Part shown: positions 38,428-54,265 of the stretch, one piece after another
Layout of the letters: each line of letters opens with the position of its first letter
How positions within the stretch are numbered: the first letter of the stretch is position 1
DNA from: Desulfovibrionaceae bacterium
GTDB lineage: Bacteria > Desulfobacterota > Desulfovibrionia > Desulfovibrionales > Desulfovibrionaceae
Direction of reading: 5' to 3'
Assembly: GCA_963665495.1 (NCBI GenBank)
Contig: OY762289.1
Location: 1,189,909 to 1,253,908, forward strand
Length of the DNA: 64,000 nt
The notes under the pieces: generated by a model
The model's database searches: none
Told to the model about the DNA's origin: nothing
What the model saw: only the letters and a program-made list of their open reading frames with translations
Program-made: the position numbers and the translations under genes

Positions 38428-38634
38428 ATGGGTATTGCAGTCAAAATTAATTTTCATACCGTTTTAGGAATGGAAAATAAGAATATGCATCATTTTGGTG
38501 CGTTGAGTGTGGAGTATGCATTCTGTATGATTTTAGCGGCTATATTTCTGGAAGGGGTACTTGCATTGTTTACGGATATGTCGACAGACATACTTGGGGA
38601 GTTTATGGAGTGGATTTCAAGTCCATACCCATAA
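38428..38634 (+). CDS. Flp family type IVb prepilin (divergent); true start may be the internal ATG 38470 or 38485
   Basis: Processing-site-like motif …HHFG/ALSVEYAFCMILAAIF… (G/A-x-x-V-E-Y plus a hydrophobic helix) as in Flp/Fap pilins. AT-rich gene in the island. Confidence 0.55.
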   Translation: MGIAVKINFHTVLGMENKNMHHFGALSVEYAFCMILAAIFLEGVLALFTDMSTDILGEFMEWISSPYP

Positions 38635-38652
38635 AAAAATTGGGAGTTTGCC

Positions 38653-38910
38653 ATGAAAGAGTTTTTTCGTTCGCTTTGCGCCAGGATCTATAGTGAAATC
38701 GACTCACTGCATCAGAAGTATTATGTCAACAAACTTGGCAGCCAATCGGGCGCAACTACAGTTGAATACGCGCTTCTTATCGCCGTCATAGTTACCATGG
38801 TGATCGCAGCCGCCACCTTTATGTATGAGGATTTGAAAACATTTTTTACTAAGGTAGTTGAAAAAATAACCAACATGGCCACGGACAAAAAAGCTGATAC
38901 TGCTTTTTAA
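38653..38910 (+). CDS. Flp family type IVb prepilin
   Basis: …LGSQSG/ATTVEYALLIAVIVTMVIAAATF… is the classical Flp motif. RBS TGGGAG 6 nt upstream. Followed by a terminator hairpin. Confidence 0.75.
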   Translation: MKEFFRSLCARIYSEIDSLHQKYYVNKLGSQSGATTVEYALLIAVIVTMVIAAATFMYEDLKTFFTKVVEKITNMATDKKADTAF

Positions 38911-38931
38911 AGGCTATGCTTTTTTTACAAT

Positions 38932-38969
38932 GGAGCCTGTGTTGATACACAGGCTCTGTCAATTTTTTT
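38932..38969 (+). terminator. Rho-independent terminator/attenuator after the pilin genes
   Basis: GGAGCCTGTG-ttgata-CACAGGCTC stem-loop followed by gtcaaTTTTTTT. Sits between flp and the downstream pseudopilin genes. Confidence 0.65.
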
Positions 38970-39084
38970 GTTGTAGTAGAAAAATTAACAATATTCTGTT
39001 TGTAATTACTATTATTTATATGTGAAATAAAAATAAATTTTTACGATGATTACAAAAAATTTTACCGCCTATTTTAGTTAGATA

Positions 39085-39477
39085 ATGAGTAATAAAAGAC
39101 AAAATTCTAAATATGAATCAGGCGCAACAACTGTTGAATTTGCCTTTGCCATGATTTGGGTTTTTTTCTTTTTCATAGCCTACTATCAGATTATTGAGAT
39201 TTTTTTAGTGCACGAACGCGTCTCGTACGCGACTTTTATCGCTTCCCGAGCACATCAGGTGCATGGTGATGCATCCACGGCTGCTGGTGCCGTATTGAAC
39301 GAATATGAAATTAAAACCCGTAAAAAATCCGTTACAATAAGCAAAACCATTCGCGTTCCTATTGATTTCAAAAATCCATTTGACGGTAATGATTTCAGAA
39401 CCGGCGGCGCCAGATTCGAGGTGGCGGAAACGGTTCCCACGTTTTCCGAACCGGGCGAAGGGTCTGGAGATAACTGA
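39085..39477 (+). CDS. TadE-like pseudopilin
   Basis: N-terminus …KYESG/ATTVEFAFAMIWVFFFF… matches the TadE/TadF-type prepilin-like N-terminal domain. Confidence 0.65.
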   Translation: MSNKRQNSKYESGATTVEFAFAMIWVFFFFIAYYQIIEIFLVHERVSYATFIASRAHQVHGDASTAAGAVLNEYEIKTRKKSVTISKTIRVPIDFKNPFDGNDFRTGGARFEVAETVPTFSEPGEGSGDN

Positions 39478-39478
39478 A

Positions 39479-40390
39479 ATGATTCCGCGGGACACGACCA
39501 CAGAGCGTCAGAACGCACAATGCGGATCCGTCACCGTTCTGGTGGTTTTTCTGCTGCCGGTTATGTGCATCATGCTGATGCTGATGGTGAACATCGGCCA
39601 GGCTGTTTTTGAAAAAATTCGTCTGCAGCAGACCGTGGATATGTGTGCGTTGTCCGCAGCGAATGTTCAGGCCATGGGGCTGAATGAGATAGCGGACCTG
39701 AACTTCGAGGCTGAATTTCAATATTGGTCAATGGCCCTGCAGCATGCGATTCCATTCTGGGCGTCGTTTTCGGATGGCAAAAATTGTACGGATTTTTTTA
39801 AAGATGTTTTTAAGGAAATTCTGGAAAAACAGGACGATGCCAATAGTGATTATGCTGAGGCGGCTTTGGACATTGCGGAGTACGTAAAAATGATCAATTT
39901 GCCAATGACCACTCTTGAGTCGGTAAATCCGGAAGATTCCAAGCTGATGAAATATAAAAAGGTAAGTCGTTTCTATTTCTTTTTATTTCTCTCCGAGTGT
40001 TCCTGTAAGTATTGCCCAAGCTTAACGTCCTTTACCTGGAATGGTAACATGGCTGGAAAAGCAGAAAAGTGGGGACTACATTTTGGTAAACAATCTGAAG
40101 GAACTAAGTGTTCAGTTTCAATCCCCATGTTTGGCAGCATAGACTATAAAATCAAGAAAAAGAAAAATCCGACAACATATTCTGCATTCAAAATAACCCA
40201 GCGCCCTAAACGATTTATTCTTGCTTCAGGTATTTTTGGAAAGCTCGATGAACTTGTGGCCTATGCTGCAGCCAAGCCTGTTGGTGGTTCCATCTACAAC
40301 GGAAAACCACAATATAAGGGTGTTCTGTGGCGGCTCAATGATCTTGAGCCAGCGCCAGATGTCGATGACCTCAGCGAGTTTGAGCATTAA
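39479..40390 (+). CDS. TadG-like protein (putative Flp pilus-assembly TadE/G-like N-terminal domain)
   Basis: …ERQNAQCGSVTVLVVFLLPVMCIMLMLMVNIGQAVFEKIRLQQTVDMCALSAA… fits the TadE/G-like N-terminal pattern (…ALxLPxLL…VD…R…LQxAAD…AA). The start 39479 abuts the previous stop. The 3' half is AT-rich. Confidence 0.6.
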   Translation: MIPRDTTTERQNAQCGSVTVLVVFLLPVMCIMLMLMVNIGQAVFEKIRLQQTVDMCALSAANVQAMGLNEIADLNFEAEFQYWSMALQHAIPFWASFSDGKNCTDFFKDVFKEILEKQDDANSDYAEAALDIAEYVKMINLPMTTLESVNPEDSKLMKYKKVSRFYFFLFLSECSCKYCPSLTSFTWNGNMAGKAEKWGLHFGKQSEGTKCSVSIPMFGSIDYKIKKKKNPTTYSAFKITQRPKRFILASGIFGKLDELVAYAAAKPVGGSIYNGKPQYKGVLWRLNDLEPAPDVDDLSEFEH

Positions 40391-40391
40391 C

Positions 40392-40805
40392 ATGTTGCAG
40401 TGCAAAACGATGGATAAATTTGTTTCCAAAAGAGTGGAACGATCAAAAAGCAGTGAAAGCGGCCAGATGATGATAGAGTTTGGTTTTATGCTCTTCATGA
40501 TGCTCGCGCCTATGCTGGTTACTCTTCTTGTTTTCTATGAGGTTATCAATGAACTCATTACCGTTCAGGAGCAGATTTATTACGACCTGCGTGAAAAAAT
40601 TGACGACAGGGCTGCCGGCCCCTTTTTTCCGGTTTACAAAAAAGAGACCGCACGGGTGGAACTGCCAGTCAAAATGCATGGATTTATCGGCGTTGACAAA
40701 GTGGAGGTTGATTTGGAGCTCAGAGCCTTTGCCGGTTGTTGGCAAGGGAACAATTTGAATAGCTATAAATTGGGAAGACGGTTGCGAACAACAGGGATGG
40801 AGTGA
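40392..40805 (+). CDS. TadE-like pseudopilin (second copy)
   Basis: …KSSESG/QMMIEFGFMLFMMLAPMLVTLLVFY… prepilin-like N-terminus. The start (40392 or 40410) is ambiguous. Confidence 0.55.
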   Translation: MLQCKTMDKFVSKRVERSKSSESGQMMIEFGFMLFMMLAPMLVTLLVFYEVINELITVQEQIYYDLREKIDDRAAGPFFPVYKKETARVELPVKMHGFIGVDKVEVDLELRAFAGCWQGNNLNSYKLGRRLRTTGME

Positions 40806-40807
40806 AT

Positions 40808-41671
40808 ATGAAGGGGAGCAGAGTACTGGTCATTTCGCTGGTGGGAGCGCTAATCGCCCTGATGCTGGTCTACGGCTACATCTCCAGCAGGGAAAAAGCC
40901 CTGATGCGCGGAGAGACTCCCATCAAGGTTGTGGTGGCGTTGCGGGACATCCCGGAAGATACGCGTCTGGACGACACCATGGTGGAAGTGCGCGAAGTGC
41001 CCAAGGCCTTTGTGCAGCCTGGCGCGGTGTCCGACGTCACGGACGTCTACGACCGGGTGCTGCAGATAGGAGTGATGTCCGGAGCGCAGATTCTTGAAGA
41101 CATGGTTCGTCCCAGTGAAGGCGAAACCCTTGCTAAGAAGATTCCCAGCGGCATGCGCGCCGTGAGCATTTCCGCCAACGAAGTGACGGCGGTTGCCGGT
41201 TTGATTCAGCCGGGGAACTTTGTGGACGTGCTGCTGACCGTGGAAACCGGCGTTTATGACGAGCGAGGTGTCATGCAGCCCGAGCAGACCATCACAAAAA
41301 CCGTGCTGCAGAATATTCTGGTGCTCGCCGCCAATCAATTTTCATCCAAACGGGATTATCAACGCTCGAAATTCAAAAATACGCAGAAAGTTCCGGGGAC
41401 GTACTATTCCGTACCTTCCGCCAAAGGGGAGGGCGGCAATCAGCTGCGGACATTGACTCTGGCACTGAGTCCTGAAGATGCGCAAAAGATCACTCTGGCG
41501 CAGGAAGTGGGGTCCGTGACCGTGGCGCTACGCAGTTCGTGGTCCGAAGATAAAAGCGTGTCCTTGCCGTTTTTATCCGCAAATCAGCTTATGGGCGTGG
41601 ACAAAAAGATCATGCGCAGATCAATGCCCTCCTGGGTGGAAATTCGCGGATCGCAGATGGTCAACCCCTGA
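40808..41671 (+). CDS. cpaB: Flp pilus assembly protein CpaB/RcpC
   Basis: N-terminal TM, SAF-like domain then RcpC region (…IKVVVALRDIPEDTRLDDTMVEVREVPKAFVQPGAVSD… …GNFVDVLLT…). Confidence 0.8.
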   Translation: MKGSRVLVISLVGALIALMLVYGYISSREKALMRGETPIKVVVALRDIPEDTRLDDTMVEVREVPKAFVQPGAVSDVTDVYDRVLQIGVMSGAQILEDMVRPSEGETLAKKIPSGMRAVSISANEVTAVAGLIQPGNFVDVLLTVETGVYDERGVMQPEQTITKTVLQNILVLAANQFSSKRDYQRSKFKNTQKVPGTYYSVPSAKGEGGNQLRTLTLALSPEDAQKITLAQEVGSVTVALRSSWSEDKSVSLPFLSANQLMGVDKKIMRRSMPSWVEIRGSQMVNP

Positions 41672-41797
41672 GGCCGAACGACAGATATTTTTCACACTGG
41701 ATCGGAAATTCAGGCTTCAAGCCGAAGCCATCGGTACAAGCGGCGGAGCGAGCCGGTTCGGCGGATTCGCTCCAGTAATTCATAAGGGAGACAGGTG

Positions 41798-43300
41798 ATG
41801 CATCGTTCCAAGGGTAGTGGTGTGGCAAGGGTTCTCGCCGTACTTATGCTGGTTCTTTTACTGCCGGTGGCGGCATTCACGCAGAAACCGCCGGACGATG
41901 TCGTCAAAGTCATGGCAGGCAACAGCGTGGTTTATGCCGTGGACTTCAAGATCGAAAAGGTGGCCACCGGCGATCCCAAAGTCTTCGGCGTTGTGCAGAC
42001 CGGCGACAATGAAATGATCATCAATGCTGTTGCCGAGGGTGCGAGCAATCTGATTATTTTCGGCCCTAACGACGAACGCAGGGAAGTGTTCATCAACGTG
42101 CTGACTCCCGAGTTGATGCTCAAAGCCGAAGAACTCCGGGGCATGCTTTCGGATATCGAAGGCGTTGAAGTCAAGATCATCGGCAAGAAAATCATTGTCG
42201 ACGGCCTGGTTTTCAAGAGCAAGGATTTCGGCAAGATCAATCAGCTTCTTGCCAGTATGCCTGAGGTGGTCAACCTCGTACGCATGAGCCCGTTCATGAA
42301 AAAGATCGTGGCCCAGGAGATCGAACGCAGCATCGGGCGTCCGGGCATCACCGTTCGCGTCGCCAAAAACGCCTTTTTGATTGAAGGCGTGGTCCCCAAC
42401 GAAGAAGAAGGACAGCGCGCGGAAAAGATCGCCCTGGCCTACAGCCCCAACGTGGTCAACGCGCTGCTCAGCACCGCCTCGCAGGAACGGCCCGCACCCT
42501 ATTCCAAGCCGAATATCATCGAAGTCAATTTGACTATCATGGAAGTGACCAAGACCGCGTTGAAACAGTTCGGCATCTATTGGAACCCAACCATCTCGAC
42601 CACTGGCAACGCCGGATTCGACCATGAAAGCAACTTCGAGTGGTTCCCTTTCAGCACGTCCATGGCGGAAAATCTGGTCTACAGCCTCTCCGGTACCATT
42701 TCCTCCTTTTTCCCCACCATGCAGCGAATCAATGAAACCGGCAACGGGCGTTCGTTGATGCAGCAGACTCTGATTACCAAGGAGGGCGGGGCGGCCAAAT
42801 TCTTTGCAGGATCCGAAGAGCCCATCCCCGTGGCTCAGGACGGCGGGACCATGTCCGTGGAGTACAAGAAAGTGGGTATGACGCTTAATGTGACGCCCAA
42901 CCTGGACGAACTTGGGAATATCGACTCCATGCTGGAGATGGAGTCCAGCACAGTGACGGGCACCAGCAGCGGTGCGCCCATCGTGAATACCAACAGCGTC
43001 ACCACCGCCATCAATGTGGCTCAGGGCACCACCATCGTCATCGGCGGTCTGGCAGGGCAGCGCGAGCTGAAAAATCTGGCCAACAGCAACCCCAACGACG
43101 AGGGTACCGGAAGCCTGTTTGAAGCCAACTACGACAAAGCGCGCCAGAAAAGCCAGACCGAAGTCGTGGTCTTCATCACGCCGCGTATTGTGGAAGACGC
43201 TAAAGATGCCGGCAAAGACATGAAAGTCAACACCAAGCGCTCGATCAAAAAAGTGGAACTCGACAACCTGCGCGAAGTGTTTGACGGCTATTACAAATAA
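41798..43300 (+). CDS. cpaC: Tad/Cpa secretin CpaC/RcpA (type II/III secretion-system secretin family)
   Basis: Signal peptide. N-terminal β-domains and C-terminal secretin domain (…GTTIVIGGLAGQRELKNLAN… …VVVFITPRIVED…). RBS AAGGGAG 7 nt before ATG 41798. Confidence 0.85.
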   Translation: MHRSKGSGVARVLAVLMLVLLLPVAAFTQKPPDDVVKVMAGNSVVYAVDFKIEKVATGDPKVFGVVQTGDNEMIINAVAEGASNLIIFGPNDERREVFINVLTPELMLKAEELRGMLSDIEGVEVKIIGKKIIVDGLVFKSKDFGKINQLLASMPEVVNLVRMSPFMKKIVAQEIERSIGRPGITVRVAKNAFLIEGVVPNEEEGQRAEKIALAYSPNVVNALLSTASQERPAPYSKPNIIEVNLTIMEVTKTALKQFGIYWNPTISTTGNAGFDHESNFEWFPFSTSMAENLVYSLSGTISSFFPTMQRINETGNGRSLMQQTLITKEGGAAKFFAGSEEPIPVAQDGGTMSVEYKKVGMTLNVTPNLDELGNIDSMLEMESSTVTGTSSGAPIVNTNSVTTAINVAQGTTIVIGGLAGQRELKNLANSNPNDEGTGSLFEANYDKARQKSQTEVVVFITPRIVEDAKDAGKDMKVNTKRSIKKVELDNLREVFDGYYK

Positions 43301-43323: not shown

Positions 43324-45399
43324 ATGGGGAGAATGCTTAGCGTCTATGCCACCAAGGGTGGCGTCGGCAAAAGCTTTTTGGCAGTGAACCTGGCGGTAAA
43401 CCTGCATTTGGAAACCAGGGAAAATGTGCTGCTCGTTGATTTCGGCCAGCCTTTTTCCATTGATGTGGCAACGTATCTGGAACTCAAAAAGGTCAATACA
43501 CTGGACAAGATGCTCCCGACTGCCATGAAGCTGAATCCGGCAATACTGAAAAGTTTTGTCACCCGCCACGATTCGGGCGTGGATGTCCTGAGCCTGAGCC
43601 AGAGTCTTGCCCCGCTGGGGCCGGAAGTCCTTTCCGCCGGGAATCTGGAGGCCGTGCTCGGCAAGCTCATGCCTTCCTACGGCTGGCTCGTGGCAGATGT
43701 GGGCATGGCCTATGGTCCGGCCGTGGATACGTTGCTTGAGGTCTCGGACCTGGTGATGCTTGTCTGCGAACCCTCAATTCTCGGACTGAAGCATACGTTT
43801 CAGGATCTGGCGTTTCTGCAGGCCCAGAATTTTCCTCAGGAAAAGATCAAGCTGGTCCTGAACAGAGACGGCCTGAATGAAAGCATTTCTGCTGAACTGG
43901 TGCAACAGCGGACCAACAAGGAGGTTTTTGGTTCTCTGCCCAACGATCCGCAGGCCGAACAGAAGCTGGCCGACGGAAAGCTCTATGCCAGGGATTTTCA
44001 CCGTCATGAAGTCACCAAGGCGCTGGACGCCCTGACCGCGCAGGTCGTCCGGAGCGCAGGCGCAATGCAGAACCGCTTGAGCGTGCCCTCTGTCGGGTCC
44101 GAGGAGCAGACCGCCGAACCGGATATCGACGTACTGAAGATGGGCATCCATCAGCGGTTGCTGGAAACTTTTGATATGAAGTACGCGGATTTTGAGGTGG
44201 AAAACGATCCGGAGAAATACAGGGAGCTGGAAGAAGACGTCACCCGCCGGATCGTTGAATTGCTGGATGCGGAATCCCGCATCGCTTCCCGTCAGCGCCG
44301 GGCTGAAATCGTGAAGGAAATCAAGCAGGATGTGCTGGGACTCGGGCCGTTGGAGGACATGCTGGATGATGCGGATGTCAGCGAGATCATGATCAACCGC
44401 TGGGATCAGATTTATGTGGAGCAGAAAGGGCGTCTGAGCGTGAGCCCCAAGAAATTTCACAACGAGCAACACCTGATGCGGGTCATCGAGCGTATCGTGG
44501 CACCGCTGGGCAGGAAAATCGACACCAGTACGCCCATGGTCGACGCCCGGCTCAAGGACGGTTCGCGCGTCAATGCCATCATCCCTCCGCTGGCAATCAA
44601 CGGCGCGGCCATGACCATCCGCAAGTTTCCCAAACACCGGCTGGGTGTGGATGATCTCATCAAATACAATACGCTGAACCGGCAGATAGCTGAATTCATT
44701 CAGGCTGCTGTCAAAGCCCGTTTGAACGTGCTTGTTTCCGGCGGTACGGGTTCGGGAAAAACGACTCTGCTGAATATTCTTTCCGCTTTTATTCCTTCGG
44801 ACGAACGGATCATCACGGTGGAGGATTCGGCCGAGCTGAAGCTGCAGCAGCCCCATGTGGTCACACTGGAATCCAGGCCGCCCAATATCGAGGGCACGGG
44901 CGAGGTTTCCATCAGGGATCTGGTCAAGAATACGCTGCGTATGCGGCCCGACAGAATAGTGGTGGGCGAATGTCGCGGAGCGGAAGCCCTGGATATGCTT
45001 CAGGCCATGAATACGGGGCACGACGGCTCTTTGACCACGGTGCATGCCAATACGTCCCGCGAAGCCATTGCGCGGCTGGAAACGCTGGTCATGTTCGCGG
45101 GGTTCGATCTTTCCCCCAAGGCGATCAAAGAGCAGATCGTGGGCGCGGTGGATCTGATCATCCAGATCAAACGCTTCAAGGATGGAAGCAGACACATCGT
45201 TCAGGTTTCCGAGATTACCGGCATGGAAGGCGATGTGGTCACCATGGGGGATGTTTTCGAGTTCAAGGTATCCGGTACGGATGCCCAGGGGATCGTGCAG
45301 GGGACTTTTGTCTCCACCGGCTACGTGCCCCATTGCCTGAAGGCTTTTGAGGAAAAAGGCATTTCCATACCGAGGGAAATTTTCTGGACGGCGGATTAA
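43324..45399 (+). CDS. Fused TadZ/CpaE-like (ParA/MinD-type) ATPase plus TadA/CpaF secretion ATPase
   Basis: Residues 1-~260: deviant Walker A SVYATKGGVGKSFLAVNLA (MinD/ParA class), no N-terminal receiver-like domain. Residues ~280-691: CpaF-type ATPase (Walker A GGTGSGKTTLLN, …RIVVGECRGAEALDMLQAMNTGHDGSLTTVHANT…). Single uninterrupted ORF. Confidence 0.85.
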   Translation: MGRMLSVYATKGGVGKSFLAVNLAVNLHLETRENVLLVDFGQPFSIDVATYLELKKVNTLDKMLPTAMKLNPAILKSFVTRHDSGVDVLSLSQSLAPLGPEVLSAGNLEAVLGKLMPSYGWLVADVGMAYGPAVDTLLEVSDLVMLVCEPSILGLKHTFQDLAFLQAQNFPQEKIKLVLNRDGLNESISAELVQQRTNKEVFGSLPNDPQAEQKLADGKLYARDFHRHEVTKALDALTAQVVRSAGAMQNRLSVPSVGSEEQTAEPDIDVLKMGIHQRLLETFDMKYADFEVENDPEKYRELEEDVTRRIVELLDAESRIASRQRRAEIVKEIKQDVLGLGPLEDMLDDADVSEIMINRWDQIYVEQKGRLSVSPKKFHNEQHLMRVIERIVAPLGRKIDTSTPMVDARLKDGSRVNAIIPPLAINGAAMTIRKFPKHRLGVDDLIKYNTLNRQIAEFIQAAVKARLNVLVSGGTGSGKTTLLNILSAFIPSDERIITVEDSAELKLQQPHVVTLESRPPNIEGTGEVSIRDLVKNTLRMRPDRIVVGECRGAEALDMLQAMNTGHDGSLTTVHANTSREAIARLETLVMFAGFDLSPKAIKEQIVGAVDLIIQIKRFKDGSRHIVQVSEITGMEGDVVTMGDVFEFKVSGTDAQGIVQGTFVSTGYVPHCLKAFEEKGISIPREIFWTAD

Positions 45400-45427
45400 G
45401 CTGAGGAAGGAAGCGCTTGTGGATAAC

Positions 45428-46731: not shown

Positions 46732-47280
46732 ATGGGCTTGCGCGCGCGTCTTGTACTACTGCTTTTTCTTTTTGCCTTGCCGTTGACCACATCATGTTCG
46801 ATGCGCCCCAAAGTGGAAGGGGTGCTTCCCAAAGGCATCGTTCAGGTGGACAAGAACAATTACAACGCCATGGTCTTACGAAGCAAAGGCCCCTGCATGG
46901 TGTTGTTCTATGACGAAGGCATCGAATCCACCGCGTTGCACCGCCTTTACATCGCGTATGCCGACCGCTACGGCAAACACGCCAAATTCTGCCGCTACCA
47001 GTGGGACGGTACCGATAACCCCGGCGATTACCGCCTCGAGGTCCGGCCCACCATCATTTTGTACCGCGACGGCATTGAAGTGGACCGTCTGCGCGGCATT
47101 CCCCCGCGTACGCCCGATTATGTGGACTGGAACGAGGACGTGGAACTCTGGATCCTGCGTACCGCCATTCAGGTAAAAAGCGACAAATACACGGCCACCT
47201 TCAATTGTTTCTTTAACAACACCTATGACCTGGAGTTCACCAATCTGGGCATGGACGATAAACGGGATGTCGAGGATTAG
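46732..47280 (+). CDS. Lipoprotein with a thioredoxin-like fold lacking the CxxC active site
   Basis: Signal peptide + lipobox (LPLTTSC). …CMVLFYDEGIEST… …RPTIILYRDGIEVDRLRG… has thioredoxin-fold topology without redox cysteines. RBS AAGGAG. Confidence 0.55.
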   Translation: MGLRARLVLLLFLFALPLTTSCSMRPKVEGVLPKGIVQVDKNNYNAMVLRSKGPCMVLFYDEGIESTALHRLYIAYADRYGKHAKFCRYQWDGTDNPGDYRLEVRPTIILYRDGIEVDRLRGIPPRTPDYVDWNEDVELWILRTAIQVKSDKYTATFNCFFNNTYDLEFTNLGMDDKRDVED

Positions 47281-49252: not shown

Positions 49253-50131
49253 ATGGACCTAGCATTGAAAGCAGGCGGATTGTTGTTGCTGTTTCTCAGC
49301 ATATTCGCGTTTTTGTACGCGCTGTTGCCTGGAGAAAAAGAACAGAAGGCCCGCAAGCAATTTGAAGAAGAGGCTGCGCCTGGCGAATCCACGGGCTTCA
49401 TCAATTTGTTTCGCCCGTTCTTCACTTTTTTTAAACCATTGGCCGTGCGGCTGGCCTGGCCAGGCTATCAACGGCGGATTCAGAAAATGCTGGTCAATGC
49501 GGGGCTGGACCGCGAGCTGAATGTCAGTGATTTTGTCGCCTTTCAATTCCTGTTGCTGGTGCTTTTCGTGCTGATGGGCCTGGTGTTGTGGTATAGCCTT
49601 GGGGCCGCGATTTTCGTGGGGATGCTCGGGCTTGGCTATCCGTATTTCTGGTTGTGGGACAAGAAACGCAATCGTCAGCGGGACATTGCTTTGTCCATGC
49701 CCGACGTGGTGGATATGCTTTCGCTCTCGGTGGAAGCCGGCCTGGATCTGCTGGCGGGCATCAAGCGGATTTGCGATGTGAATGCCACTGCCAGGGATCC
49801 GTTTATTCAGGAACTCGGCTACATGTACCACAACATCAAACTGGGCATGAGCACGGAAGAGGCTTTGAACTCCATGGCCGAGCGGGTGGATGTTCAGGAT
49901 GTCTATTCGTTCACGTCCATTTTGATTCAGGCCCAGAAAATGGGCTCCAGCATCTCGCAGGTACTGAAATCCCAGGCCGTACGAATGCGGCAGCAGCGCT
50001 TCATGAAAGCGGAGCGTGTCGGCGCCGTGGCTTCGCAAAAGCTGCTGATTCCAATGATGCTCTGTATTTTTCCCGTGTTGTTTATTGTGATTTTTGCCCC
50101 GTATTTACTCAAATATATCTATGGCCAATAG
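49253..50131 (+). CDS. tadC: TadC-like platform protein (T2SSF domain)
   Basis: …LSMPDVVDMLSLSVEAGLDLLAGIKRI… …SFTSILIQAQKMGSSISQVLKSQA… T2SSF signatures. RBS AAGGAG 6 nt before ATG 49253. Confidence 0.8.
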   Translation: MDLALKAGGLLLLFLSIFAFLYALLPGEKEQKARKQFEEEAAPGESTGFINLFRPFFTFFKPLAVRLAWPGYQRRIQKMLVNAGLDRELNVSDFVAFQFLLLVLFVLMGLVLWYSLGAAIFVGMLGLGYPYFWLWDKKRNRQRDIALSMPDVVDMLSLSVEAGLDLLAGIKRICDVNATARDPFIQELGYMYHNIKLGMSTEEALNSMAERVDVQDVYSFTSILIQAQKMGSSISQVLKSQAVRMRQQRFMKAERVGAVASQKLLIPMMLCIFPVLFIVIFAPYLLKYIYGQ

Positions 50132-50140
50132 GTGCGGCGC

Positions 50141-51784
50141 ATGAAATGCAGCCTCGAGATACGCAAAGGTGCGGAAACCGTGCTTTCCCGTGAGCTTGTT
50201 CCCGGAGAGTACGCCGTTGGTAGAAAAGACGGAAATGACATTGTGCTTGCCGACAAAAGTATTTCCGGAAAACACGCGGTAATTACTGTCAGCAAGAAAA
50301 AAGTCGTTATTACCGATCCCGGAAGCCGTAACGGCGTTTTGCTTCAGGGGAAACGGATCAAAAAACAGTCCTTTGCCAAGGATTTTTCCGTGCAGCTCGG
50401 ACCTTTTTTGCTGCACTTTGCTCTGGGAGCTGCGGATGCCGGACAACAAACCAGTAAAACCAAAGAGGCCAAAAAGGCCGTACAGGCCTCGAAAAGCCTG
50501 TTCGCCTCGCTTAATCCACGGGTTCTGGTCTGCTGCGTTGTGTTTTGTTTCGCGCTGTTCATGGCAGTGGTTTATTACGCGCCCCTCAAGGCTGCTTTGG
50601 AATCCGGGCGCGAACGCGAGGCTTTGGCGCGCGGCTTTCTCCTGGCCCGCTATCTGGGCGCCGTGAATCAGCTTCCGTTGGAAGAAAAACGCATGGATGT
50701 TCTGCGTACGGATCCGAGCAACACGGAAGAGGGCGTACGCTATGCCTACGTCGTTGACCCCTACGGAAAGGTCCTGGCCCCTGCCCAGGAAATGGGCAAG
50801 TTTCTGAAGCTGCGCAAGATCGACAAGGCTCTGGCGGATCCGAAGTTGCGCGCCTGGGACGGCGATGACGGCGAGCAGATCATTTTTTACCCCATCAAGG
50901 AATTCGACAAGCTGCTGGGTGCGGCCATCATCGGCTATGACCTGGAACGCGCCGTTGCCGTGCAGGGGAGCGGATACGGAGGCACAGCGGCGATGCTGTT
51001 TCTTGTTTCTCTGTTCGTCGCCGGACTGTGCTGTTTCGTGCTGCTACGCGGACTTCTTTCCCCCTTGCGGGCGCTGGCGGAAGATGCGGGCGTCAGCCTG
51101 AAGCAGCGGCAGGACCATGTGGGGTTCAAGGCAGCGTACGCCGAATTGCAGGCTCTGGTGGAAGCCATAAACAGAATGCTTTTGCTGATTGCCAAAACAG
51201 CGGACGCTGTGCCGCCAGTCAGACACGAGGAGACAGCTCCCCCCGCTACTCCTTCGGAAGAACAACCCCCTCCGGATGAAGCTGAATCTCCGCTTGATAT
51301 GGATGCCACAATTATCTCCGACAAAGCACCTGAAAGCTCTGCGCCGCGCGAGTCTGCGGCACCAGAGTTTGTACAAAGTCTGTCGGAGGCTGCGGATATT
51401 GCAGATGCCGGCCCGGCCGGCGATTCCATTGATTTGAGCAGGGAACCGGCCCCTGAAACAGGTGGGGCCGCGAACGTGGGTACGGACATCGGTTCCGTGG
51501 AACTGCCCGCCTGCCACATTGATCTGCAGCTGTATACCATCGTGTCGTTCAATACGGCATTTTGCAGCTTTTTTCCTGTCGGCGAGAAAAAGGAAGGCAT
51601 GCATATGCTCGAGGCGTTTCCTGATCCCGAATTGATCAGCGCTATTTCCACGTTGATTGATGATGCGCAGCTCGAGGCGGAGTCCGTGGTCAGGGGCGAA
51701 CGCGTAATGTGCGTACGCAAGGAAGTCTTGCCGGGGGGCGCATGGACCGCCTTGTTTACTTTTAAGGAGACTGCAGATGGCTGA
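50141..51784 (+). CDS. FHA domain membrane protein: FHA - TM - Cache-like periplasmic domain - TM - HAMP-like region - acidic/Pro-rich linker - C-terminal domain
   Basis: N-terminal FHA (…GRKDGNDIVLADKSISGKHAVI… …GSRNGVLLQG…). TM about aa 130-150. Periplasmic segment with Cache-like …YAYVVDPYGKVLA… …GAAIIGYD… TM about aa 285-310. Begins 1-10 nt after the tadC stop. Confidence 0.75.
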   Translation: MKCSLEIRKGAETVLSRELVPGEYAVGRKDGNDIVLADKSISGKHAVITVSKKKVVITDPGSRNGVLLQGKRIKKQSFAKDFSVQLGPFLLHFALGAADAGQQTSKTKEAKKAVQASKSLFASLNPRVLVCCVVFCFALFMAVVYYAPLKAALESGREREALARGFLLARYLGAVNQLPLEEKRMDVLRTDPSNTEEGVRYAYVVDPYGKVLAPAQEMGKFLKLRKIDKALADPKLRAWDGDDGEQIIFYPIKEFDKLLGAAIIGYDLERAVAVQGSGYGGTAAMLFLVSLFVAGLCCFVLLRGLLSPLRALAEDAGVSLKQRQDHVGFKAAYAELQALVEAINRMLLLIAKTADAVPPVRHEETAPPATPSEEQPPPDEAESPLDMDATIISDKAPESSAPRESAAPEFVQSLSEAADIADAGPAGDSIDLSREPAPETGGAANVGTDIGSVELPACHIDLQLYTIVSFNTAFCSFFPVGEKKEGMHMLEAFPDPELISAISTLIDDAQLEAESVVRGERVMCVRKEVLPGGAWTALFTFKETADG

Positions 51785-52796
51785 TGCCTTTTCCGAAACC
51801 GTCGTCGAGGAAACACCGGGAACGATGACTCTGAAGGTGATTCAAGGCAAAGGCGAAGGGAAAAAATACGCGTTGGCAGAGGGTCGGGGCATGGTCATCG
51901 GCCGGATGCAGGATAGCGATATTCACATTGACCCCGCTGACAAGCTGGCGTCTCGCCACCACGCCCGGATAACGCGTCAGGGAGATGCGGCCCTGCTGGA
52001 AGACCTGGGGAGTGGCAACGGCACTTTTGTGGGGGATGAAAAAATTTCGCAACAGTCATTGCAGCCGGGGGCAGTATTCCGAATCGGCGGCACGACCTTT
52101 GTGCTCGAACTCCAGAGTCCGCAGGAAGCGACCAATGTCACCATGTATCTGGACTCCGAAAAACCAGTCAAAAAAGGCGGCAGCAAAGTCAGGGTGATTT
52201 TGCTGGGGGCGCTGCTGGTCTGCATGCTGGGCGTGCTTTTCATCCTGTTTTCCGGAGACAAGGATCCGGAAAAGGCCGAACAGCAGGTGGAACCGCCGTT
52301 GAAGCAGACGGAGCAGGCCGTACCGGCTGCGGTTCCGACTCCGGCAGCCCAGCCCGCCGGACCAGAACCCGCCGGACCAGAGCCTGCGGCTGCAAAGCAA
52401 GTTGAAACAGAGGCTCCCCAAGAAGCGTCGCCGGACAAGGCTGGCTCTGACGTTTCTGAAATCAGCGGCACGCAAAAAAAAGAGTCGCAGGATCATTTTC
52501 GCCAGGGGAGATTTTTTTATAACACGGGCAATCTGGAAAAGGCCGTGGACGAATGGGATCAGGCCTACAAATTGGATCCGGACAATCAGGCGGCCAAAAA
52601 ATGGCTGCTGCGAGCGGAACAGGAACTGGACGAGCAGATAGACACCCATTACCGGCTCGGATTGAAAGCGAAAAAGTATATGCGCTATACCGACGCGTGC
52701 AATGAATTCAAACTGGTCGTGAAGTGGAGTCGTGACAAAGAGGACGAGCGTTATCTGGACGCGTTGAAGCAACTAGAAGAGTTGAAGGATAAATGA
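51777..52796 (+). CDS. FHA domain membrane protein with a Pro/Ala-rich linker and TPR-like C-terminus
   Basis: FHA (…GRMQDSDIHIDPADKLASRHHARI… …GSGNGTFV…). TM (…VILLGALLVCMLGVLFILF…). RBS AAGGAGA 6 nt before ATG. The start overlaps the upstream stop (ATGGCTGA). Confidence 0.8.
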   Translation: MADAFSETVVEETPGTMTLKVIQGKGEGKKYALAEGRGMVIGRMQDSDIHIDPADKLASRHHARITRQGDAALLEDLGSGNGTFVGDEKISQQSLQPGAVFRIGGTTFVLELQSPQEATNVTMYLDSEKPVKKGGSKVRVILLGALLVCMLGVLFILFSGDKDPEKAEQQVEPPLKQTEQAVPAAVPTPAAQPAGPEPAGPEPAAAKQVETEAPQEASPDKAGSDVSEISGTQKKESQDHFRQGRFFYNTGNLEKAVDEWDQAYKLDPDNQAAKKWLLRAEQELDEQIDTHYRLGLKAKKYMRYTDACNEFKLVVKWSRDKEDERYLDALKQLEELKDK

Positions 52797-52798
52797 TC

Positions 52799-54265
52799 AT
52801 GCCTGAAGAAGAACGAACGCAGCTGCAGCAGACCGGCGAATGGGCCGATTCCACAATGGATTACACCCAGCACGGCTTTCAGGTCGAACAGCAGAATACA
52901 CTGGTTGTCATTGAAGGACCGTCCAGTGGATTGAGCAGATCATTCGGCGACGGCATTCTGGTCGGCCGGCAACCCAATTGCGATTTGCAACTTGATGACA
53001 GCAGCGTATCCCGCGAGCATCTGCGTATTGAGCGTAAGGGTAAAAAGTTGATTGCCAACAACCTGAACAGTAAGAATTTTACGTTGGTAAACGGCAAAAA
53101 AGTTACTACCGCCACACTGCGCGACGGTGATGTCCTGAGCCTGGGCAATTCCAAGCTGCGTCTGAGTCTGAAGGGAGCAGGCGGTGGGAGTGCCGGTTCT
53201 CCTCAAAAGAGCAGCCGCGTACGTATTCTGTTGTTGCTTCTGTTGCTGCTGCTCATGCTGATAGTGCTGTTCGTCGCCCTGGGGTCCAAGGACGATGGAT
53301 CCCGGAAAACTGAGACGTCCGTGCTGGAACAGGAACGCGAAAAAGAGGCCGCAGTCGAGGATGCCAGCGTCAAGCGGGCCATAGCCGTTCATTTGAATAA
53401 CGGAAAGCGCTTCATGGAAGAAGGAAACTACCCGCAGGCGCTGGAGCGATTTGAAGCCGTGCTGCAGCTTGTCGCAAAGCATCCGCAAGCAGAAAAACTG
53501 GCCGCAGAGTGCAGGGAGCGCATTCAGAAAAAACAGCAGGCCGAGGCGAAGAGAGAGCAGGAAGTACTGGAAAGAAAACAAAAAGTGGCGCCAATGCTCA
53601 CGGAGGCCAACGTACTGTACAGTACGAAGGATTACGCAGGTGCGATTTCCGTCTTGAAACAGGCTCTGGAAATATCACCCCACGACCAGGATCTGCAGGA
53701 GTTGCAGGTCAAGGTGCAGGAGGCCTATCAGCTCGAGCAGGATACCCTGAACAAGCAGCAAAAGCGGACTGAGCGAGTTTTGAAGCGTATCCAGAGCAGC
53801 AAGGCCAAGGCCGAGGAATATGAGGCCAAAGGGCAGCATTACCGCGCTCTCAAGGAGTACGAGTTTATTCTGAGCATGAACGCCAAAGGGCCGGAGATTG
53901 AGGCCATAAAAGGCAAGGCTAGCGAACAGCGAAAAATCCTTGAAGAACAGACCCGAAGTGATTTGGAGGCCGGACAACAACTGGCCGAACAGGAAAAATA
54001 TGAAGAAGCCATGCTGGAATGGCGCAAGGTGCTGGAGGTTTATCCGGATCATCCGGGCGCGTTGAGCGCGATGCAGCAACTTCTGCCCACGCTGGAAAAA
54101 AAGGCCAAGGAATTGTATCAGCAGGGGCTGGTTTACGAAGATCTGGGCCAGACCGCCAAGGCGGTGGAAAGTTATGAGCAGGCCATGGAAGTTTTAGAAA
54201 TCAATCCCAAACACGAGTATTATCTCAAATCAAAGAAAAAGTTGAAAGAGCACGGGGCATTGTAG
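52799..54265 (+). CDS. FHA domain membrane protein with a coiled-coil/TPR-rich C-terminal region
   Basis: FHA (…GRQPNCDLQLDDSSVSREHLRI… …NSKNFTLVNG…). Leu-rich TM (…RILLLLLLLLMLIVLFVAL…). Long helical repeat region. The start overlaps the upstream stop. Confidence 0.8.
   Translation: MPEEERTQLQQTGEWADSTMDYTQHGFQVEQQNTLVVIEGPSSGLSRSFGDGILVGRQPNCDLQLDDSSVSREHLRIERKGKKLIANNLNSKNFTLVNGKKVTTATLRDGDVLSLGNSKLRLSLKGAGGGSAGSPQKSSRVRILLLLLLLLLMLIVLFVALGSKDDGSRKTETSVLEQEREKEAAVEDASVKRAIAVHLNNGKRFMEEGNYPQALERFEAVLQLVAKHPQAEKLAAECRERIQKKQQAEAKREQEVLERKQKVAPMLTEANVLYSTKDYAGAISVLKQALEISPHDQDLQELQVKVQEAYQLEQDTLNKQQKRTERVLKRIQSSKAKAEEYEAKGQHYRALKEYEFILSMNAKGPEIEAIKGKASEQRKILEEQTRSDLEAGQQLAEQEKYEEAMLEWRKVLEVYPDHPGALSAMQQLLPTLEKKAKELYQQGLVYEDLGQTAKAVESYEQAMEVLEINPKHEYYLKSKKKLKEHGAL

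What the first reader, a model, noticed from the sequence alone, without database searches (positions are those of the whole stretch)
38428..54265. Tad/Flp-type locus with two ATPase classes and an operon-fused FHA triplet
Seen directly: two Flp prepilins (G/A-[TL]-[TS]-V-E-Y), three TadE/TadG pseudopilins, cpaB, the secretin cpaC, a TadZ::TadA fusion, a TPR::TadB fusion, a lipoprotein, an extra PilB/GspE-type ATPase and tadC. Three FHA-domain membrane proteins follow; the first starts 1-10 nt after the tadC stop, and the later two overlap their upstream stop codons (ATGGCTGA, AATGATCATG).

Canonical tad loci (flp-tadV-rcpCAB-tadZABCDEFG, or the Caulobacter cpa set) have one CpaF ATPase and no FHA proteins. 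The 3' operon fusion of three phosphothreonine-binding FHA modules to the platform genes argues that Thr phosphorylation controls this machine, much as the Fha1/PpkA/PppA pathway controls the P. aeruginosa type VI secretion system.

No tadV prepilin peptidase is present in the window. The locus could be an adhesive pilus, or a Tad-like contact-dependent secretion or killing device of the kind described in predatory deltaproteobacteria. My recollection of that literature is incomplete and should be checked.
Basis: partly seen in the sequence, partly recalled or inferred. Interest (0 to 1): 0.85.

Follow-up and report, generated by a model that had tools for sequence, protein, structure and literature searches.

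The report
Two-motor Tad pilus with phosphothreonine wiring
This is a real 15-gene Tad/Flp pilus operon of a sulfate-reducing Desulfovibrionaceae bacterium that carries a second, PilB-type motor ATPase and three phosphothreonine-reading (FHA) membrane proteins next to a protein kinase and phosphatase, a layout conserved across Desulfobacterota and apparently undescribed, but a variation on known FHA-linked Tad systems rather than a new kind of machine.

Summary
Window 38428-54265 (+) encodes two Flp prepilins, three minor-pilin-like proteins, CpaB, CpaC, a TadZ::CpaF fusion, TPR::TadB, a thioredoxin-fold lipoprotein, a PilB-class ATPase, TadC and three FHA membrane proteins, with the stated junctions. 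Three small pilin-like ORFs rest on motifs only. No prepilin peptidase was found in the window.

The layout is a conserved family, seen in 18 loci, all those with a named source in Desulfobacterota, including cultured isolates. PilB-like, TadC and the FHA trio co-occur in 18/18. A kinase or PP2C is next to or within about 3.5 kb of the trio in 16/16 loci with readable flanks. All three FHA domains keep the pThr-binding residues. The PilB-like ATPases group apart from type IVa PilB.

Thr-phosphorylation control is therefore well supported by comparative evidence, though still inferred. It is not unprecedented: Myxococcus Kil and Bdellovibrio Tad loci are FHA-rich, FHA::CpaF fusions are a recognised class, and Bdellovibrio has a TadZA fusion. 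The PilB-class second motor inside a tad operon is the new element. Kil membership fails on defining features.

Verdict: new variant of a known kind; interest about 0.55.

The parts
38428..38634 (+). Flp-like prepilin 1 (G/ALSVEY)
   Evidence: Motif plus a single hydrophobic helix at residues 31-49. Weak similarity to Flp2. No profile match.
38653..38910 (+). Flp prepilin 2 (G/ATTVEY), probable major pilin
   Evidence: Pfam Flp_Fap 1.4e-9, above cutoff.
38930..38959 (+). Terminator-like hairpin (13-bp stem plus T run) just after the pilin genes; possible attenuator setting pilin:machinery stoichiometry
   Evidence: The function is inferred.
39085..39477 (+). TadE/F-like minor pilin 1 (G/ATTVEF)
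   Evidence: Motif and N-terminal helix only. No profile match.
39479..40390 (+). TadG-like protein (Tad N-terminal domain)
   Evidence: PF13400 8e-11. The gene call in the identical contig L001 starts at the equivalent of 39479.
40410..40805 (+). TadE/F-like minor pilin 2 (G/QMMIEF)
   Evidence: Motif only. Position conserved in relatives.
40802..41671 (+). CpaB/RcpC
   Evidence: RcpC 2.7e-28, SAF. TIGR03177 170 bits against a cutoff of 71.
41795..43300 (+). CpaC/RcpA secretin
   Evidence: Secretin 2.6e-20, T2SS-T3SS_pil_N 4.4e-10, weak BON.
43324..45399 (+). TadZ::CpaF fusion: ParA/MinD-like TadZ without a receiver-like N-domain, a linker, then the CpaF motor
   Evidence: CbiA/AAA_31 at residues 3-219 and T2SSE 4.7e-61. 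Best solved match is Caulobacter CpaF, 2.7e-117. Deviant Walker A KGGVGKS at residue 11; Walker A, Asp box and His box intact. The fusion is conserved in the family.
45428..46663 (+). TPR::TadB platform protein (start uncertain, 45347-45428)
   Evidence: T2SSF 1.4e-17 plus TPR. The TPR lies between two predicted TM helices, so is probably periplasmic.
46732..47280 (+). Thioredoxin-fold lipoprotein without CxxC, co-conserved with the PilB-like gene
   Evidence: Weak thioredoxin matches. Conserved lipobox Cys. Lies immediately upstream of PilB-like in 15 of the 16 loci whose upstream flank is readable; absent in L009.
47488..49209 (+). PilB-class (extension-type) ATPase; ORF opens at 47425
   Evidence: T2SSE 4.4e-120 plus MshEN. 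NCBIfam PilB 553.7 bits (cutoff 675.65) and GspE 493.9. Geobacter and Myxococcus PilB 1e-121 to 1e-116 over the full length. Walker A/B, Asp and His boxes and the CxxC...CxxC Zn motif are intact and conserved. Groups apart from T4aP PilB.
49253..50131 (+). TadC platform protein (single T2SSF domain)
   Evidence: T2SSF 1.3e-15. Always follows PilB-like in the family.
50141..51784 (+). FHA1: FHA - TM - periplasmic Cache/PDC-like domain - TM - helical (HAMP-like) segment - disordered Pro-rich linker - PAS domain
   Evidence: FHA 4e-13. AF2 model and TM predictions. C-terminal domain model has pLDDT 85, and all of the 50 top matches listed from the PDB fold search are PAS domains. Weak sCache_3_2 match. 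The family is rare: 6 database hits.
51777..52796 (+). FHA2: N-terminal Thr tail (S-E-T-V-V) - FHA - TM - periplasmic TPR
   Evidence: FHA 2.7e-17, TPR_2. TM at residues 140-158. The Thr is conserved in 10/10 Desulfovibrionales orthologues.
52793..54265 (+). FHA3: FHA - TM - long periplasmic TPR region (the database orthologue starts at 52799)
   Evidence: FHA 2.4e-17 and many TPR families. TM at residues 145-163. A 488-aa identical protein is in the database.
54379..56061 (-). Hanks-type Ser/Thr kinase with TM and a periplasmic DUF4384 domain (convergent with FHA3)
   Evidence: Pkinase 9.2e-51, DUF4384. Gly loop, AAIK, HRD, DFG and SPE motifs intact. Orthologous kinases follow FHA3 co-directionally in L008-L010, L015 and L019 (L017 has a kinase without DUF4384).
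56286..57443 (-). Periplasmic ABC_sub_bind protein between the kinase and the phosphatase; possible co-sensor
   Evidence: PF04392 3e-19. Conserved in L002 and L004. The role is inferred.
57594..59732 (-). Receptor-type PP2C phosphatase (dCache - HAMP - SpoIIE/PP2C)
   Evidence: SpoIIE 6.4e-49, dCache_2 7.6e-43, HAMP. Conserved in L002 and L004. Other family members instead carry a soluble PP2C right after FHA3.

Best explanation
The locus encodes one envelope-spanning Tad (type IVc) pilus machine of a Desulfovibrionaceae bacterium. It belongs to a conserved Desulfobacterota subfamily built from three gene modules:
1. pilins (2 Flp, 2 TadE-like, 1 TadG-like);
2. cpaB-cpaC-tadZ::cpaF-TPR::tadB;
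3. Trx-lipoprotein - PilB-class ATPase - tadC - FHA1 - FHA2 - FHA3, always with a Hanks kinase and/or a PP2C phosphatase close by.

Proposed mechanism. Shown: gene content, conservation, intact catalytic and pThr-binding motifs. Inferred: everything else.
- The kinase has a periplasmic DUF4384 domain and the PP2C a periplasmic dCache sensor. Together they set the phosphorylation state of Thr sites. The best candidates are the conserved acidic-Thr-hydrophobic motifs in the cytoplasmic tails of FHA2 and FHA3.
- The three FHA domains read these pThr marks and assemble the FHA proteins into an inner-membrane scaffold. FHA2 and FHA3 are bitopic with periplasmic TPR domains. FHA1 is a sensor-like FHA-TM-Cache-TM-PAS protein.
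- The scaffold is functionally analogous to PilMNO/GspLM, which Tad systems lack. It recruits or licenses the PilB-class ATPase onto the TadB/TadC platform.
- The machine would thus have a constitutive CpaF-type motor positioned by its fused TadZ, plus a signal-gated PilB-type extension motor. This would give regulated pilus extension (surface attachment or aggregation) in response to envelope or extracellular cues.
- The prepilin peptidase is supplied from elsewhere in the genome.
For: Tad identity.

Both motors look catalytically competent.

The PilB-class ATPase sits between tadB and tadC, and there is only one tadB and one tadC in the locus.

PilB-like, TadC and FHA1-3 co-occur in 18/18 loci, across Desulfovibrionales, Desulfobacterales and Desulfosudaceae, at 30-96% identity.

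Module structure shows in L017, where cpaB-tadB is on the opposite strand to lipo-pilB-tadC-FHA-kinase. It also shows in L008 and L010, where module 3 stands without adjacent cpa genes.

A kinase or PP2C is adjacent in 16/16 loci with readable flanks: co-directional and directly after FHA3 in 13, and convergent in the window and its two closest relatives.

G-R, S-x-x-H and N of the pThr pocket are conserved in all three FHA domains in all 14 sequences aligned. The closest structural matches to the FHA1 domain are pThr-binding FHA domains: CT664, OdhI, GarA, Rv1747, and DgcB bound to its own phospho-tail.

A D-[DRK]-T-[IV]-[IVFY] motif recurs in FHA2 and FHA3 tails, and in one kinase juxtamembrane region, but not in the ATPases or platform proteins. 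It loosely resembles the acidic-upstream, hydrophobic-downstream preference of mycobacterial Hanks kinases (PMC7164672).

FHA1 has the sensory architecture of a histidine kinase without the kinase core.

Precedents for FHA-TM scaffolds in envelope machines are GltG and, from established knowledge, T3SS SctD and T6SS TagH/Fha.
Against: There are no experimental data for any member.

The substrate of the kinase is unknown, and the Thr motif was found post hoc. In the window's own subclade it is degenerate (S-E-T-V-V; A-D-S-T-M-D).

In the window the kinase is convergent and the PP2C is two genes further on, so co-transcription with the FHA genes is excluded there.

The recruitment of PilB by FHA proteins is pure inference. 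No complex prediction or co-evolution test was possible.

L008 and L010 show that module 3 can lie away from cpaB, cpaC and cpaF, so it might serve another filament system.

Whether CpaF and PilB act on the same platform is unknown.

The MshEN-like N-domain lacks the R/G/Q residues of the c-di-GMP motif, so that input is not supported.
Confidence: 0.5

Rival explanations
1. Kil-like weapon or secretion device. The machine is a contact-dependent killing or effector-delivery apparatus like Myxococcus Kil, with the PilB-class ATPase giving it T2SS-like secretion capacity and the FHA/kinase module sensing contact.
For: FHA-rich Tad-like loci with FHA/TPR proteins next to the platform genes are the hallmark of Kil. 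The TadZA fusion and absent TadV are shared with the predatory Bdellovibrio Tad. Relatives carry variable, cargo-like neighbours: caspase-like C14 peptidase with CsgG-like and GNA1162-like lipoproteins, a C11 peptidase, an RHS/WHH toxin, MopE-repeat and C-type-lectin proteins, and a transglutaminase-like protein.
Against: The window itself has no such cargo gene near the locus. KilF-type FHA::CpaF is absent and there are two ATPases, whereas Kil has one. The hosts are anaerobic sulfate reducers with no known predation. A profile search with FHA3 found no Myxococcus or Bdellovibrio homologue, although the tool's sensitivity is limited. The neighbours differ between loci, so they may be unrelated.
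Confidence: 0.13
2. Two juxtaposed systems. There is an ordinary single-motor Tad pilus (flp...tadB, tadC), plus an independent PilB-FHA-kinase unit that acts on another type IV filament or process and merely shares the neighbourhood.
For: Module 3 occurs without adjacent cpaB, cpaC or cpaF in L008 and L010, and on a separate strand in L017. The PilB-like ATPase descends from T4aP PilB, with nearest outgroups at 43-47% identity.
Against: tadC, an essential Tad platform gene, always travels with PilB-like and the FHA trio (18/18). No PilC, PilM, PilN, PilO, PilQ or type IVa pilin gene appears in any of the loci. In the window the PilB gene is embedded between tadB and tadC with short spacers.
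Confidence: 0.17
3. The FHA proteins are purely structural ring or scaffold subunits that do not read phosphothreonine (as in T3SS SctD/PrgH), and the nearby kinase and phosphatase serve other pathways.
For: All three match Pfam Yop-YscD_cpl (5e-14 to 9e-16). They share the FHA-TM-periplasmic-domain topology of SctD. In the window the kinase is not co-transcribed.
Against: The pThr-pocket residues are invariant across the family. To my knowledge (not checked here) SctD-type domains have lost them. TIGR02500 (SctD) scores 30.7 bits against a cutoff of 86. Adjacency of a kinase or PP2C in 16/16 loci, with three different tail architectures, is hard to explain without a functional link.
Confidence: 0.1

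Closest known systems
Bdellovibrio bacteriovorus HD100 Tad system with TadZA (bioRxiv 10.64898/2026.07.08.737194)
   Same: TadZ::TadA fusion lacking the receiver-like ARD. No TadV in the tad loci (PilD processes Flp). FHA- and TPR-domain genes next to tad genes. tadC can be genetically separate from tadZA-tadB.
   Different: No PilB-class ATPase is reported in the Bdellovibrio tad loci; the extra ATPases there are TadA paralogues. The genes are dispersed. The host is an obligate predator and the machine is controlled by the RomR polarity hub. Sequence-level orthology was not tested here.
Myxococcus xanthus Kil Tad-like system (Seef et al. 2021, PMC8460266)
   Same: Tad-derived machine with many FHA proteins, including FHA+TPR (MXAN_4648) and FHA (MXAN_4649) genes directly beside the two GspF-domain platform genes. 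The secretin has the same Pfam composition (pil_N, BON, Secretin). A phospho-signalling role has been proposed but not shown.
   Different: Kil has a single ATPase that is itself FHA::CpaF, a prepilin peptidase KilA, and two separate clusters. It is restricted to predatory Myxococcales, Bradymonadales and Bdellovibrionales. Here there is TadZ::CpaF plus a PilB-class ATPase, one contiguous operon, and Desulfobacterota hosts.
Canonical Tad/Cpa pilus (Caulobacter cpa, Aggregatibacter tad)
   Same: Flp pilin, TadE/F/G-like proteins, CpaB/RcpC, CpaC/RcpA, TadZ/CpaE, CpaF/TadA, TadB and TadC.
   Different: The canonical system uses one bifunctional motor (PMC6920026, PMC12019362), a separate TadZ with ARD, and TadV and TadD, and has no FHA trio.
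Class III CpaF (FHA::CpaF, mostly betaproteobacteria; PMC12019362)
   Same: Links a pThr-reading FHA module to a Tad motor.
   Different: There the FHA is fused to the motor. Here three FHA domains sit on separate membrane proteins, and the motor is fused to TadZ instead.
Type IVa pilus two-motor logic (PilB extension / PilT retraction)
   Same: A PilB-class, Zn-finger-bearing hexameric ATPase is present. The best solved matches are Geobacter and Myxococcus PilB.
   Different: There is no PilT/U, PilC, PilMNOP, PilQ or type IVa pilin. The second motor is CpaF-type.
T6SS threonine-phosphorylation pathway (PpkA/PppA/Fha1; Agrobacterium TssL-Fha)
   Same: A membrane Hanks kinase with a periplasmic domain, a PP2C phosphatase and FHA reader(s) are encoded with an envelope machine. 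A periplasmic binding protein lies between the kinase and the phosphatase, recalling the TagR/TagQST accessory sensors (a parallel from established knowledge).
   Different: No T6SS genes are present. There are three FHA readers, all membrane-anchored. The phosphatase is receptor-type (dCache-HAMP) in the window.
FHA-TM scaffolds of other envelope machines (T3SS SctD/PrgH; Myxococcus GltG)
   Same: Cytoplasmic FHA, a single TM and a periplasmic domain (Pfam Yop-YscD_cpl match; GltG).
   Different: The scores are far below the family cutoffs. The periplasmic parts are TPR or Cache-like rather than ring-building motifs or TonB-C. The pThr pocket is retained.

Membership tests
Tad/Flp (type IVc) pilus | Flp-type prepilin with G/xxxxEY processing motif | tested here: met
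   Flp2 matches Flp_Fap at 1.4e-9. Both ORFs carry G/A(T,L)(T,S)VEY.
Tad/Flp (type IVc) pilus | CpaF/TadA-type ATPase | tested here: met
   T2SSE 4.7e-61. Best solved match is Caulobacter CpaF, 2.7e-117.
Tad/Flp (type IVc) pilus | Two single-T2SSF-domain platform proteins (TadB, TadC) | tested here: met
   T2SSF 1.4e-17 and 1.3e-15, one domain each.
Tad/Flp (type IVc) pilus | RcpA/CpaC secretin and RcpC/CpaB | tested here: met
Tad/Flp (type IVc) pilus | TadZ/CpaE ParA-like protein | tested here: met
   Present as the N-terminal half of the CpaF fusion, without ARD.
Tad/Flp (type IVc) pilus | TadE/TadF minor pilins | tested here: inconclusive
   Motif and topology only. No profile match at E<=5.
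Tad/Flp (type IVc) pilus | TadV/CpaA prepilin peptidase in the locus | tested here: not met
   No Peptidase_A24 match in any of the 48 window ORFs scanned, nor in related loci. The rest of the genome was not searched.
Tad/Flp (type IVc) pilus | Single bifunctional motor ATPase | tested here: not met
   A second, PilB-class ATPase lies between tadB and tadC.
Myxococcus Kil system | Motor is FHA::CpaF (KilF) and is the only ATPase | tested here: not met
   The motor is TadZ::CpaF with no FHA domain, and there is an extra PilB-class ATPase.
Myxococcus Kil system | FHA-domain proteins encoded beside the platform genes | tested here: met
   FHA1-3 follow tadC.
Myxococcus Kil system | Clade membership of CpaF/TadB/TadC/CpaB with Kil proteins; restriction to predatory taxa | not tested
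   No Kil sequences could be fetched. All family members found whose source names a lineage are Desulfobacterota. The FHA3 profile search found no myxobacterial hit.
Myxococcus Kil system | Contact-dependent prey killing | not testable with these tools
   This is a phenotype.
Bdellovibrio-type TadZA Tad system | TadZ::TadA fusion lacking ARD; no TadV in tad loci | tested here: met
   Orthology itself was not tested.
Type IVa pilus | PilB equivalog plus PilC, PilMNOP, PilQ, PilT and a type IVa pilin | tested here: not met
   The PilB model scores 553.7 bits against a cutoff of 675.65. None of the other components is present in the locus.
Type II secretion system | GspE equivalog plus GspC, D, F, L, M and pseudopilins G-K | tested here: not met
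   The GspE model scores 493.9 bits against a cutoff of 630.25. No other Gsp components are present.
T6SS threonine-phosphorylation pathway | Hanks kinase, PP2C and a pThr-competent FHA reader | tested here: met
T6SS threonine-phosphorylation pathway | Association with T6SS core genes | tested here: not met
   No T6SS family matched among the window ORFs scanned. It resembles the pathway in logic but is not a member.
T3SS SctD/PrgH | SctD equivalog; FHA-like domain lacking the pThr pocket | tested here: not met
   TIGR02500 scores 30.7 bits against a cutoff of 86. The pThr residues are retained.

The most novel reading that the evidence does not exclude
A dual-motor Tad machine. In a whole clade of Desulfobacterota, a recruited PilB-class ATPase with 'its own' platform half (TadC), a Trx-fold lipoprotein and three pThr-reading membrane adaptors would form a signal-gated second drive on a Tad pilus. 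This would break the 'single bifunctional motor' rule of Tad systems. In some lineages it may turn the pilus into a contact- or signal-triggered delivery or secretion device for neighbouring clan-CD peptidases or RHS toxins, in bacteria not known as predators.
Probability: 0.2. Interest if true: 0.8.

Novelty: new variant of a known kind. Interest (0 to 1): 0.55.

Why it matters
Tad pili are currently defined by one bifunctional motor, CpaF, and how one motor both extends and retracts the pilus is an active question. A conserved natural variant pairs CpaF with a PilB-class extension motor and wires both to a kinase/phosphatase/FHA circuit. It offers a comparative handle on two things: motor specialisation, and the long-suspected but untested role of FHA domains in Tad-like machines (Kil, Bdellovibrio, class III CpaF).

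The family is present in culturable sulfate reducers: Desulfolutivibrio sulfoxidireducens, Desulfonatronovibrio magnus and Desulfovibrio sp. DV. The hypothesis is therefore experimentally testable.

It could also bear on surface attachment and aggregation of sulfate reducers, for example in biofilms. That link is speculative.

Tried and rejected
- **c-di-GMP control of the PilB-like ATPase through its MshEN-like N-domain.** Rejected as unsupported. The R, G and Q of the RLGxxLLxxGLLxxxxLxxxLxxQ motif (recalled from memory) are not conserved in the family.
- **FHA1 C-terminal domain as a STAS-type phospho-acceptor for the SpoIIE-family PP2C.** Rejected. The domain model (pLDDT 85) matches only PAS folds.
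- **Direct homology test against Kil or Bdellovibrio FHA proteins.** The FHA1 and FHA3 searches returned only 6 full-length orthologues each and no predator sequences. This tool pre-filters on shared words, so the result is weak negative evidence only.
- **Naming the taxa of other TadZ::CpaF fusions.** The representative search shows many full-length fusions at 40-46% identity. Cluster look-up named only one, a Spirochaetota MAG.
- **Looking up the window's own contig through the 100%-identical FHA3 protein.** It is not on record.
- **Foldseek on the full FHA1 model.** It was dominated by the FHA domain, so a domain-only model was needed.
- **Whether the 430-aa ORF upstream of the lipoprotein in L010 is a diverged TadB.** No similarity was found.
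- **Literature searches for a PilB-class ATPase within a tad locus, or for this locus in Desulfovibrio.** Nothing relevant turned up.

Full report
**1. Observation**

Window 38428-54265 carries 15 co-directional ORFs with short spacers or overlaps.

Profile searches confirm the following assignments:
- Flp2 (Flp_Fap).
- A TadG-like protein (PF13400).
- CpaB/RcpC and the CpaC secretin.
- A 691-aa protein whose N-terminal 220 residues are ParA/MinD-like and whose C-terminal 350 are CpaF.
- A TPR-bearing single-T2SSF protein (TadB).
- A full-length T2SSE ATPase with an MshEN-type N-domain.
- A second single-T2SSF protein (TadC).
[quoted passage not shown] Three small ORFs have no profile support even at E<=5: Flp1 and two TadE-like ORFs. 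They are accepted on three grounds. They carry the class-III signal motif G/(A,Q)xx(V,I)E(Y,F). Each has a single hydrophobic helix. Their positions are conserved in relatives.

The 'lipoprotein' has a conserved lipobox cysteine. It has a thioredoxin-like fold that lacks the CxxC motif.

No A24 prepilin peptidase matched any of the 48 window ORFs scanned. A few ORFs of 126 aa or less were not scanned.

**2.

Three genes lie immediately downstream on the minus strand:
- A Hanks-type Ser/Thr kinase at 54379-56061. Its catalytic motifs are intact, and it has a TM helix and a periplasmic DUF4384 domain.
- A periplasmic ABC_sub_bind protein at 56286-57443.
- A receptor-type PP2C phosphatase at 57594-59732, with dCache, HAMP and SpoIIE domains.

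A strong terminator-like hairpin follows the pilin genes at 38930-38959.

**3. The two ATPases**

The CpaF half is closest to Caulobacter CpaF (2.7e-117).

The extra ATPase aligns over its full length with Geobacter and Myxococcus PilB (1e-121 to 1e-116). It scores 553.7 bits on the PilB model and 493.9 on GspE. Both scores are below the equivalog cutoffs.

Both motors keep the Walker A, Asp-box, Walker B and His-box motifs. The PilB-like protein also keeps the CxxC...CxxC zinc motif in every family member.

Its N-terminal MshEN-like segment lacks the key residues of the c-di-GMP motif, so that input is not supported.

**4. A conserved family, not a one-off**

FHA1 is rare. It has 6 hits among 5.8 billion proteins and 10 loci among GTDB species genomes. 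Nine of the ten are titled Desulfobacterota lineages: Desulfovibrionaceae, Desulfovibrionales, Desulfovibrio sp. DV, Desulfobacterales and Desulfosudaceae. One is deposited only as 'Proteobacteria'.

The PilB-like protein has about 93 database clusters at 44-94% identity and full coverage. Nearly all the named ones are Desulfobacterota, including the isolates Desulfolutivibrio sulfoxidireducens and Desulfonatronovibrio magnus. A few carry only 'Deltaproteobacteria' or 'Pseudomonadota' labels.

UPGMA clustering separates these clusters cleanly from the next-best hits. Those are type IVa-type PilB proteins at 43-47% identity, with Deferribacter, Deferrisoma and Deltaproteobacteria among the named sources.

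In 18 distinct loci the order (lipo)-PilB-TadC-FHA1-FHA2-FHA3 is invariant. In most of them it follows cpaB-cpaC-tadZ::cpaF-TPR::tadB directly or after one or two inserted genes.

Two observations show that the operon is built of modules:
- In L017 the cpaB-to-tadB block is on the opposite strand.
- In L008 and L010 the PilB module has no cpa genes within 3-7 kb upstream.

tadC always travels with the PilB-class ATPase. tadB travels with CpaF.

**5. Phosphothreonine link**

A kinase or PP2C flanks the FHA trio in all 16 loci with readable downstream sequence. Three tail types occur:
- A: a convergent kinase, ABC_sub_bind and dCache-PP2C. This is the window and its two nearest relatives.
- B: a soluble PP2C immediately after an FHA3 that has two FHA domains.
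- C: a co-directional kinase with DUF4384, then a caspase-like C14 peptidase, a CsgG-like protein and (except in L019) a GNA1162-like lipoprotein.

All three FHA domains keep the G-R, S-x-x-H and N residues of the pThr pocket in all 14 sequences aligned.

The closest solved matches to the FHA1 domain are pThr-binding FHA domains. They include Bdellovibrio DgcB bound to its own phosphorylated tail.

A short acidic-Thr-hydrophobic motif, D-[DRK]-T-[IV]-[IVFY], recurs in three places:
- In the FHA2 N-terminal tail, where the Thr is conserved in 10/10 Desulfovibrionales sequences. The window has S-E-T-V-V.
- Upstream of the FHA domain of FHA3.
- As tandem copies after the FHA domain of FHA3 in the Desulfobacterales-type loci.

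I propose this motif as the phospho-acceptor and FHA ligand. That is an inference from a post hoc pattern.

**6. Architecture of the FHA proteins**

FHA2 and FHA3 are bitopic: cytoplasmic FHA, one TM helix, and a periplasmic TPR region.

FHA1 has a longer chain of domains:
- FHA domain.
- TM helix.
- Periplasmic helix plus beta-sheet domain, Cache/PDC-like, with only a weak sCache_3_2 match.
- Second TM helix.
- HAMP-like helix.
- Disordered Pro-rich linker.
- C-terminal domain whose model (pLDDT 85) matches only PAS folds.

FHA1 therefore looks like the sensory half of a histidine kinase, with an FHA domain in place of the catalytic core. The TPR of TadB is also probably periplasmic. No TadD-type TPR pilotin is encoded, so these TPR modules may substitute for it. 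That is also an inference.

**7. Mechanism proposed**

I read the locus as one Tad pilus machine with two motors.
- CpaF is positioned by its fused TadZ.
- The PilB-class ATPase is recruited or licensed by a scaffold of the three FHA proteins.
- Assembly of that scaffold depends on Thr phosphorylation, which is set by the membrane kinase and the PP2C in response to periplasmic or extracellular cues.

Shown here: gene content, conservation, intact motifs and predicted topologies. Everything else in the model is inferred.

Confidence by layer:
- About 0.9 that this is a functional Tad-type filament system.
- About 0.7 that the kinase/PP2C/FHA circuit acts on it.
- About 0.3 for the specific model in which the FHA scaffold recruits PilB.

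**8. Comparison with what is known**

FHA-Tad coupling has several precedents:
- Kil clusters are FHA-rich. They have FHA+TPR and FHA genes beside the platform genes, and KilF is FHA::CpaF.
- FHA::CpaF is the 'class III' CpaF architecture.
- Bdellovibrio tad loci have FHA and TPR neighbours, a TadZA fusion without ARD, and no TadV.

The window shares the TadZA fusion, the absent TadV and the FHA-beside-platform features with these systems. It fails the defining Kil features: no FHA::CpaF, a second ATPase, one contiguous operon, and non-predatory hosts. Orthology with Kil was not testable here.

TadZ::CpaF fusions are common among database representatives.

I found no description of a PilB-class ATPase embedded in a tad operon, nor of this FHA trio. 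The Tad literature treats a single bifunctional motor as the rule.

The logic resembles the T6SS PpkA/PppA/Fha pathway, and FHA-TM scaffolds such as SctD and GltG. The locus is a member of none of these families.

**9. Verdict**

The locus is a new variant of a known kind. Interest is about 0.55. The main value lies in the conserved second motor and the testable kinase/FHA wiring in culturable sulfate reducers.

The variable cargo-like neighbours in relatives keep a secretion or weapon reading alive at low probability. They include a caspase-like peptidase, a C11 peptidase, an RHS/WHH toxin, and lectin and MopE-repeat proteins.

Noticed in passing
window 38000-40400: The pilin/minor-pilin segment is strikingly AT-rich: GC 0.36 against about 0.55 for the rest of the operon. 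Where comparable with the closest relative L005, it also diverges faster. TadG is 70% identical over a 27-residue fragment and TadE3 is 76%, against 91-96% for CpaB, CpaC, CpaF and PilB. The FHA proteins (70-79%) also evolve faster than the motors.
   Followed up: partly
window 36531-37898 (+), hairpin 37948-37985: A 455-aa polytopic membrane protein with about 7 predicted TM helices lies just upstream of the pilin genes. It matches no Pfam or NCBIfam family. A 17-bp-stem terminator-like hairpin follows it. Any relation to the pilus, such as pilin modification, is unknown.
   Followed up: partly
L008, L009, L010, L015, L019 (downstream of FHA3): In Desulfobacterales-type loci the operon continues with a kinase carrying DUF4384, a caspase-like Peptidase_C14 with a Glucodextran_B domain, and a CsgG-like protein. 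A GNA1162-like lipoprotein follows in all of these loci except L019. This is a conserved tail of unknown role.
   Followed up: partly
L017 20339-21698; L014 17889-20783; L010 2-5302; L015 4794-9402 / L019 4647-9436: Variable cargo-like genes lie next to the module in relatives:
- an RHS/YD-shell toxin with a WHH nuclease domain;
- a 964-aa Peptidase_C11 with PPC domains;
- three MopE-repeat proteins, one with a C-type lectin domain;
- a transglutaminase-like protein plus a protein of about 1200 aa with no family match, inserted between tadB and the lipoprotein.
   Followed up: no
L003, L011, L014, L016, L018 (FHA3 orthologues; L017 also appears to carry two): In PP2C-type loci FHA3 carries two FHA domains in tandem. 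In D. sulfoxidireducens a fourth FHA protein (FHA plus Zn-ribbon) lies just upstream of the flp genes.
   Followed up: no
L001 (ENA contig ctg12504l): A metagenome contig carries the same locus at about 100% identity. There, TadB, PilB-like and FHA1 are split by frameshifts, most likely long-read assembly errors rather than pseudogenes.
   Followed up: partly
window 56286-57443 (-): An ABC-type periplasmic binding protein without adjacent transporter genes sits between the kinase and the dCache-PP2C. It is conserved there in the two closest relatives. It may be a co-sensor.
   Followed up: no
window 1-36500 and 60000-64000: The flanks are ordinary anaerobe housekeeping genes: an RND transporter, MatE, radical-SAM proteins, glycine cleavage P/H proteins, CbiD and CobO cobalamin genes, a PAS hybrid histidine kinase, an SPFH protein, an AIR-synthase-related protein and a SurA-like PPIase. 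There is no sign of a mobile element around the locus.
   Followed up: partly
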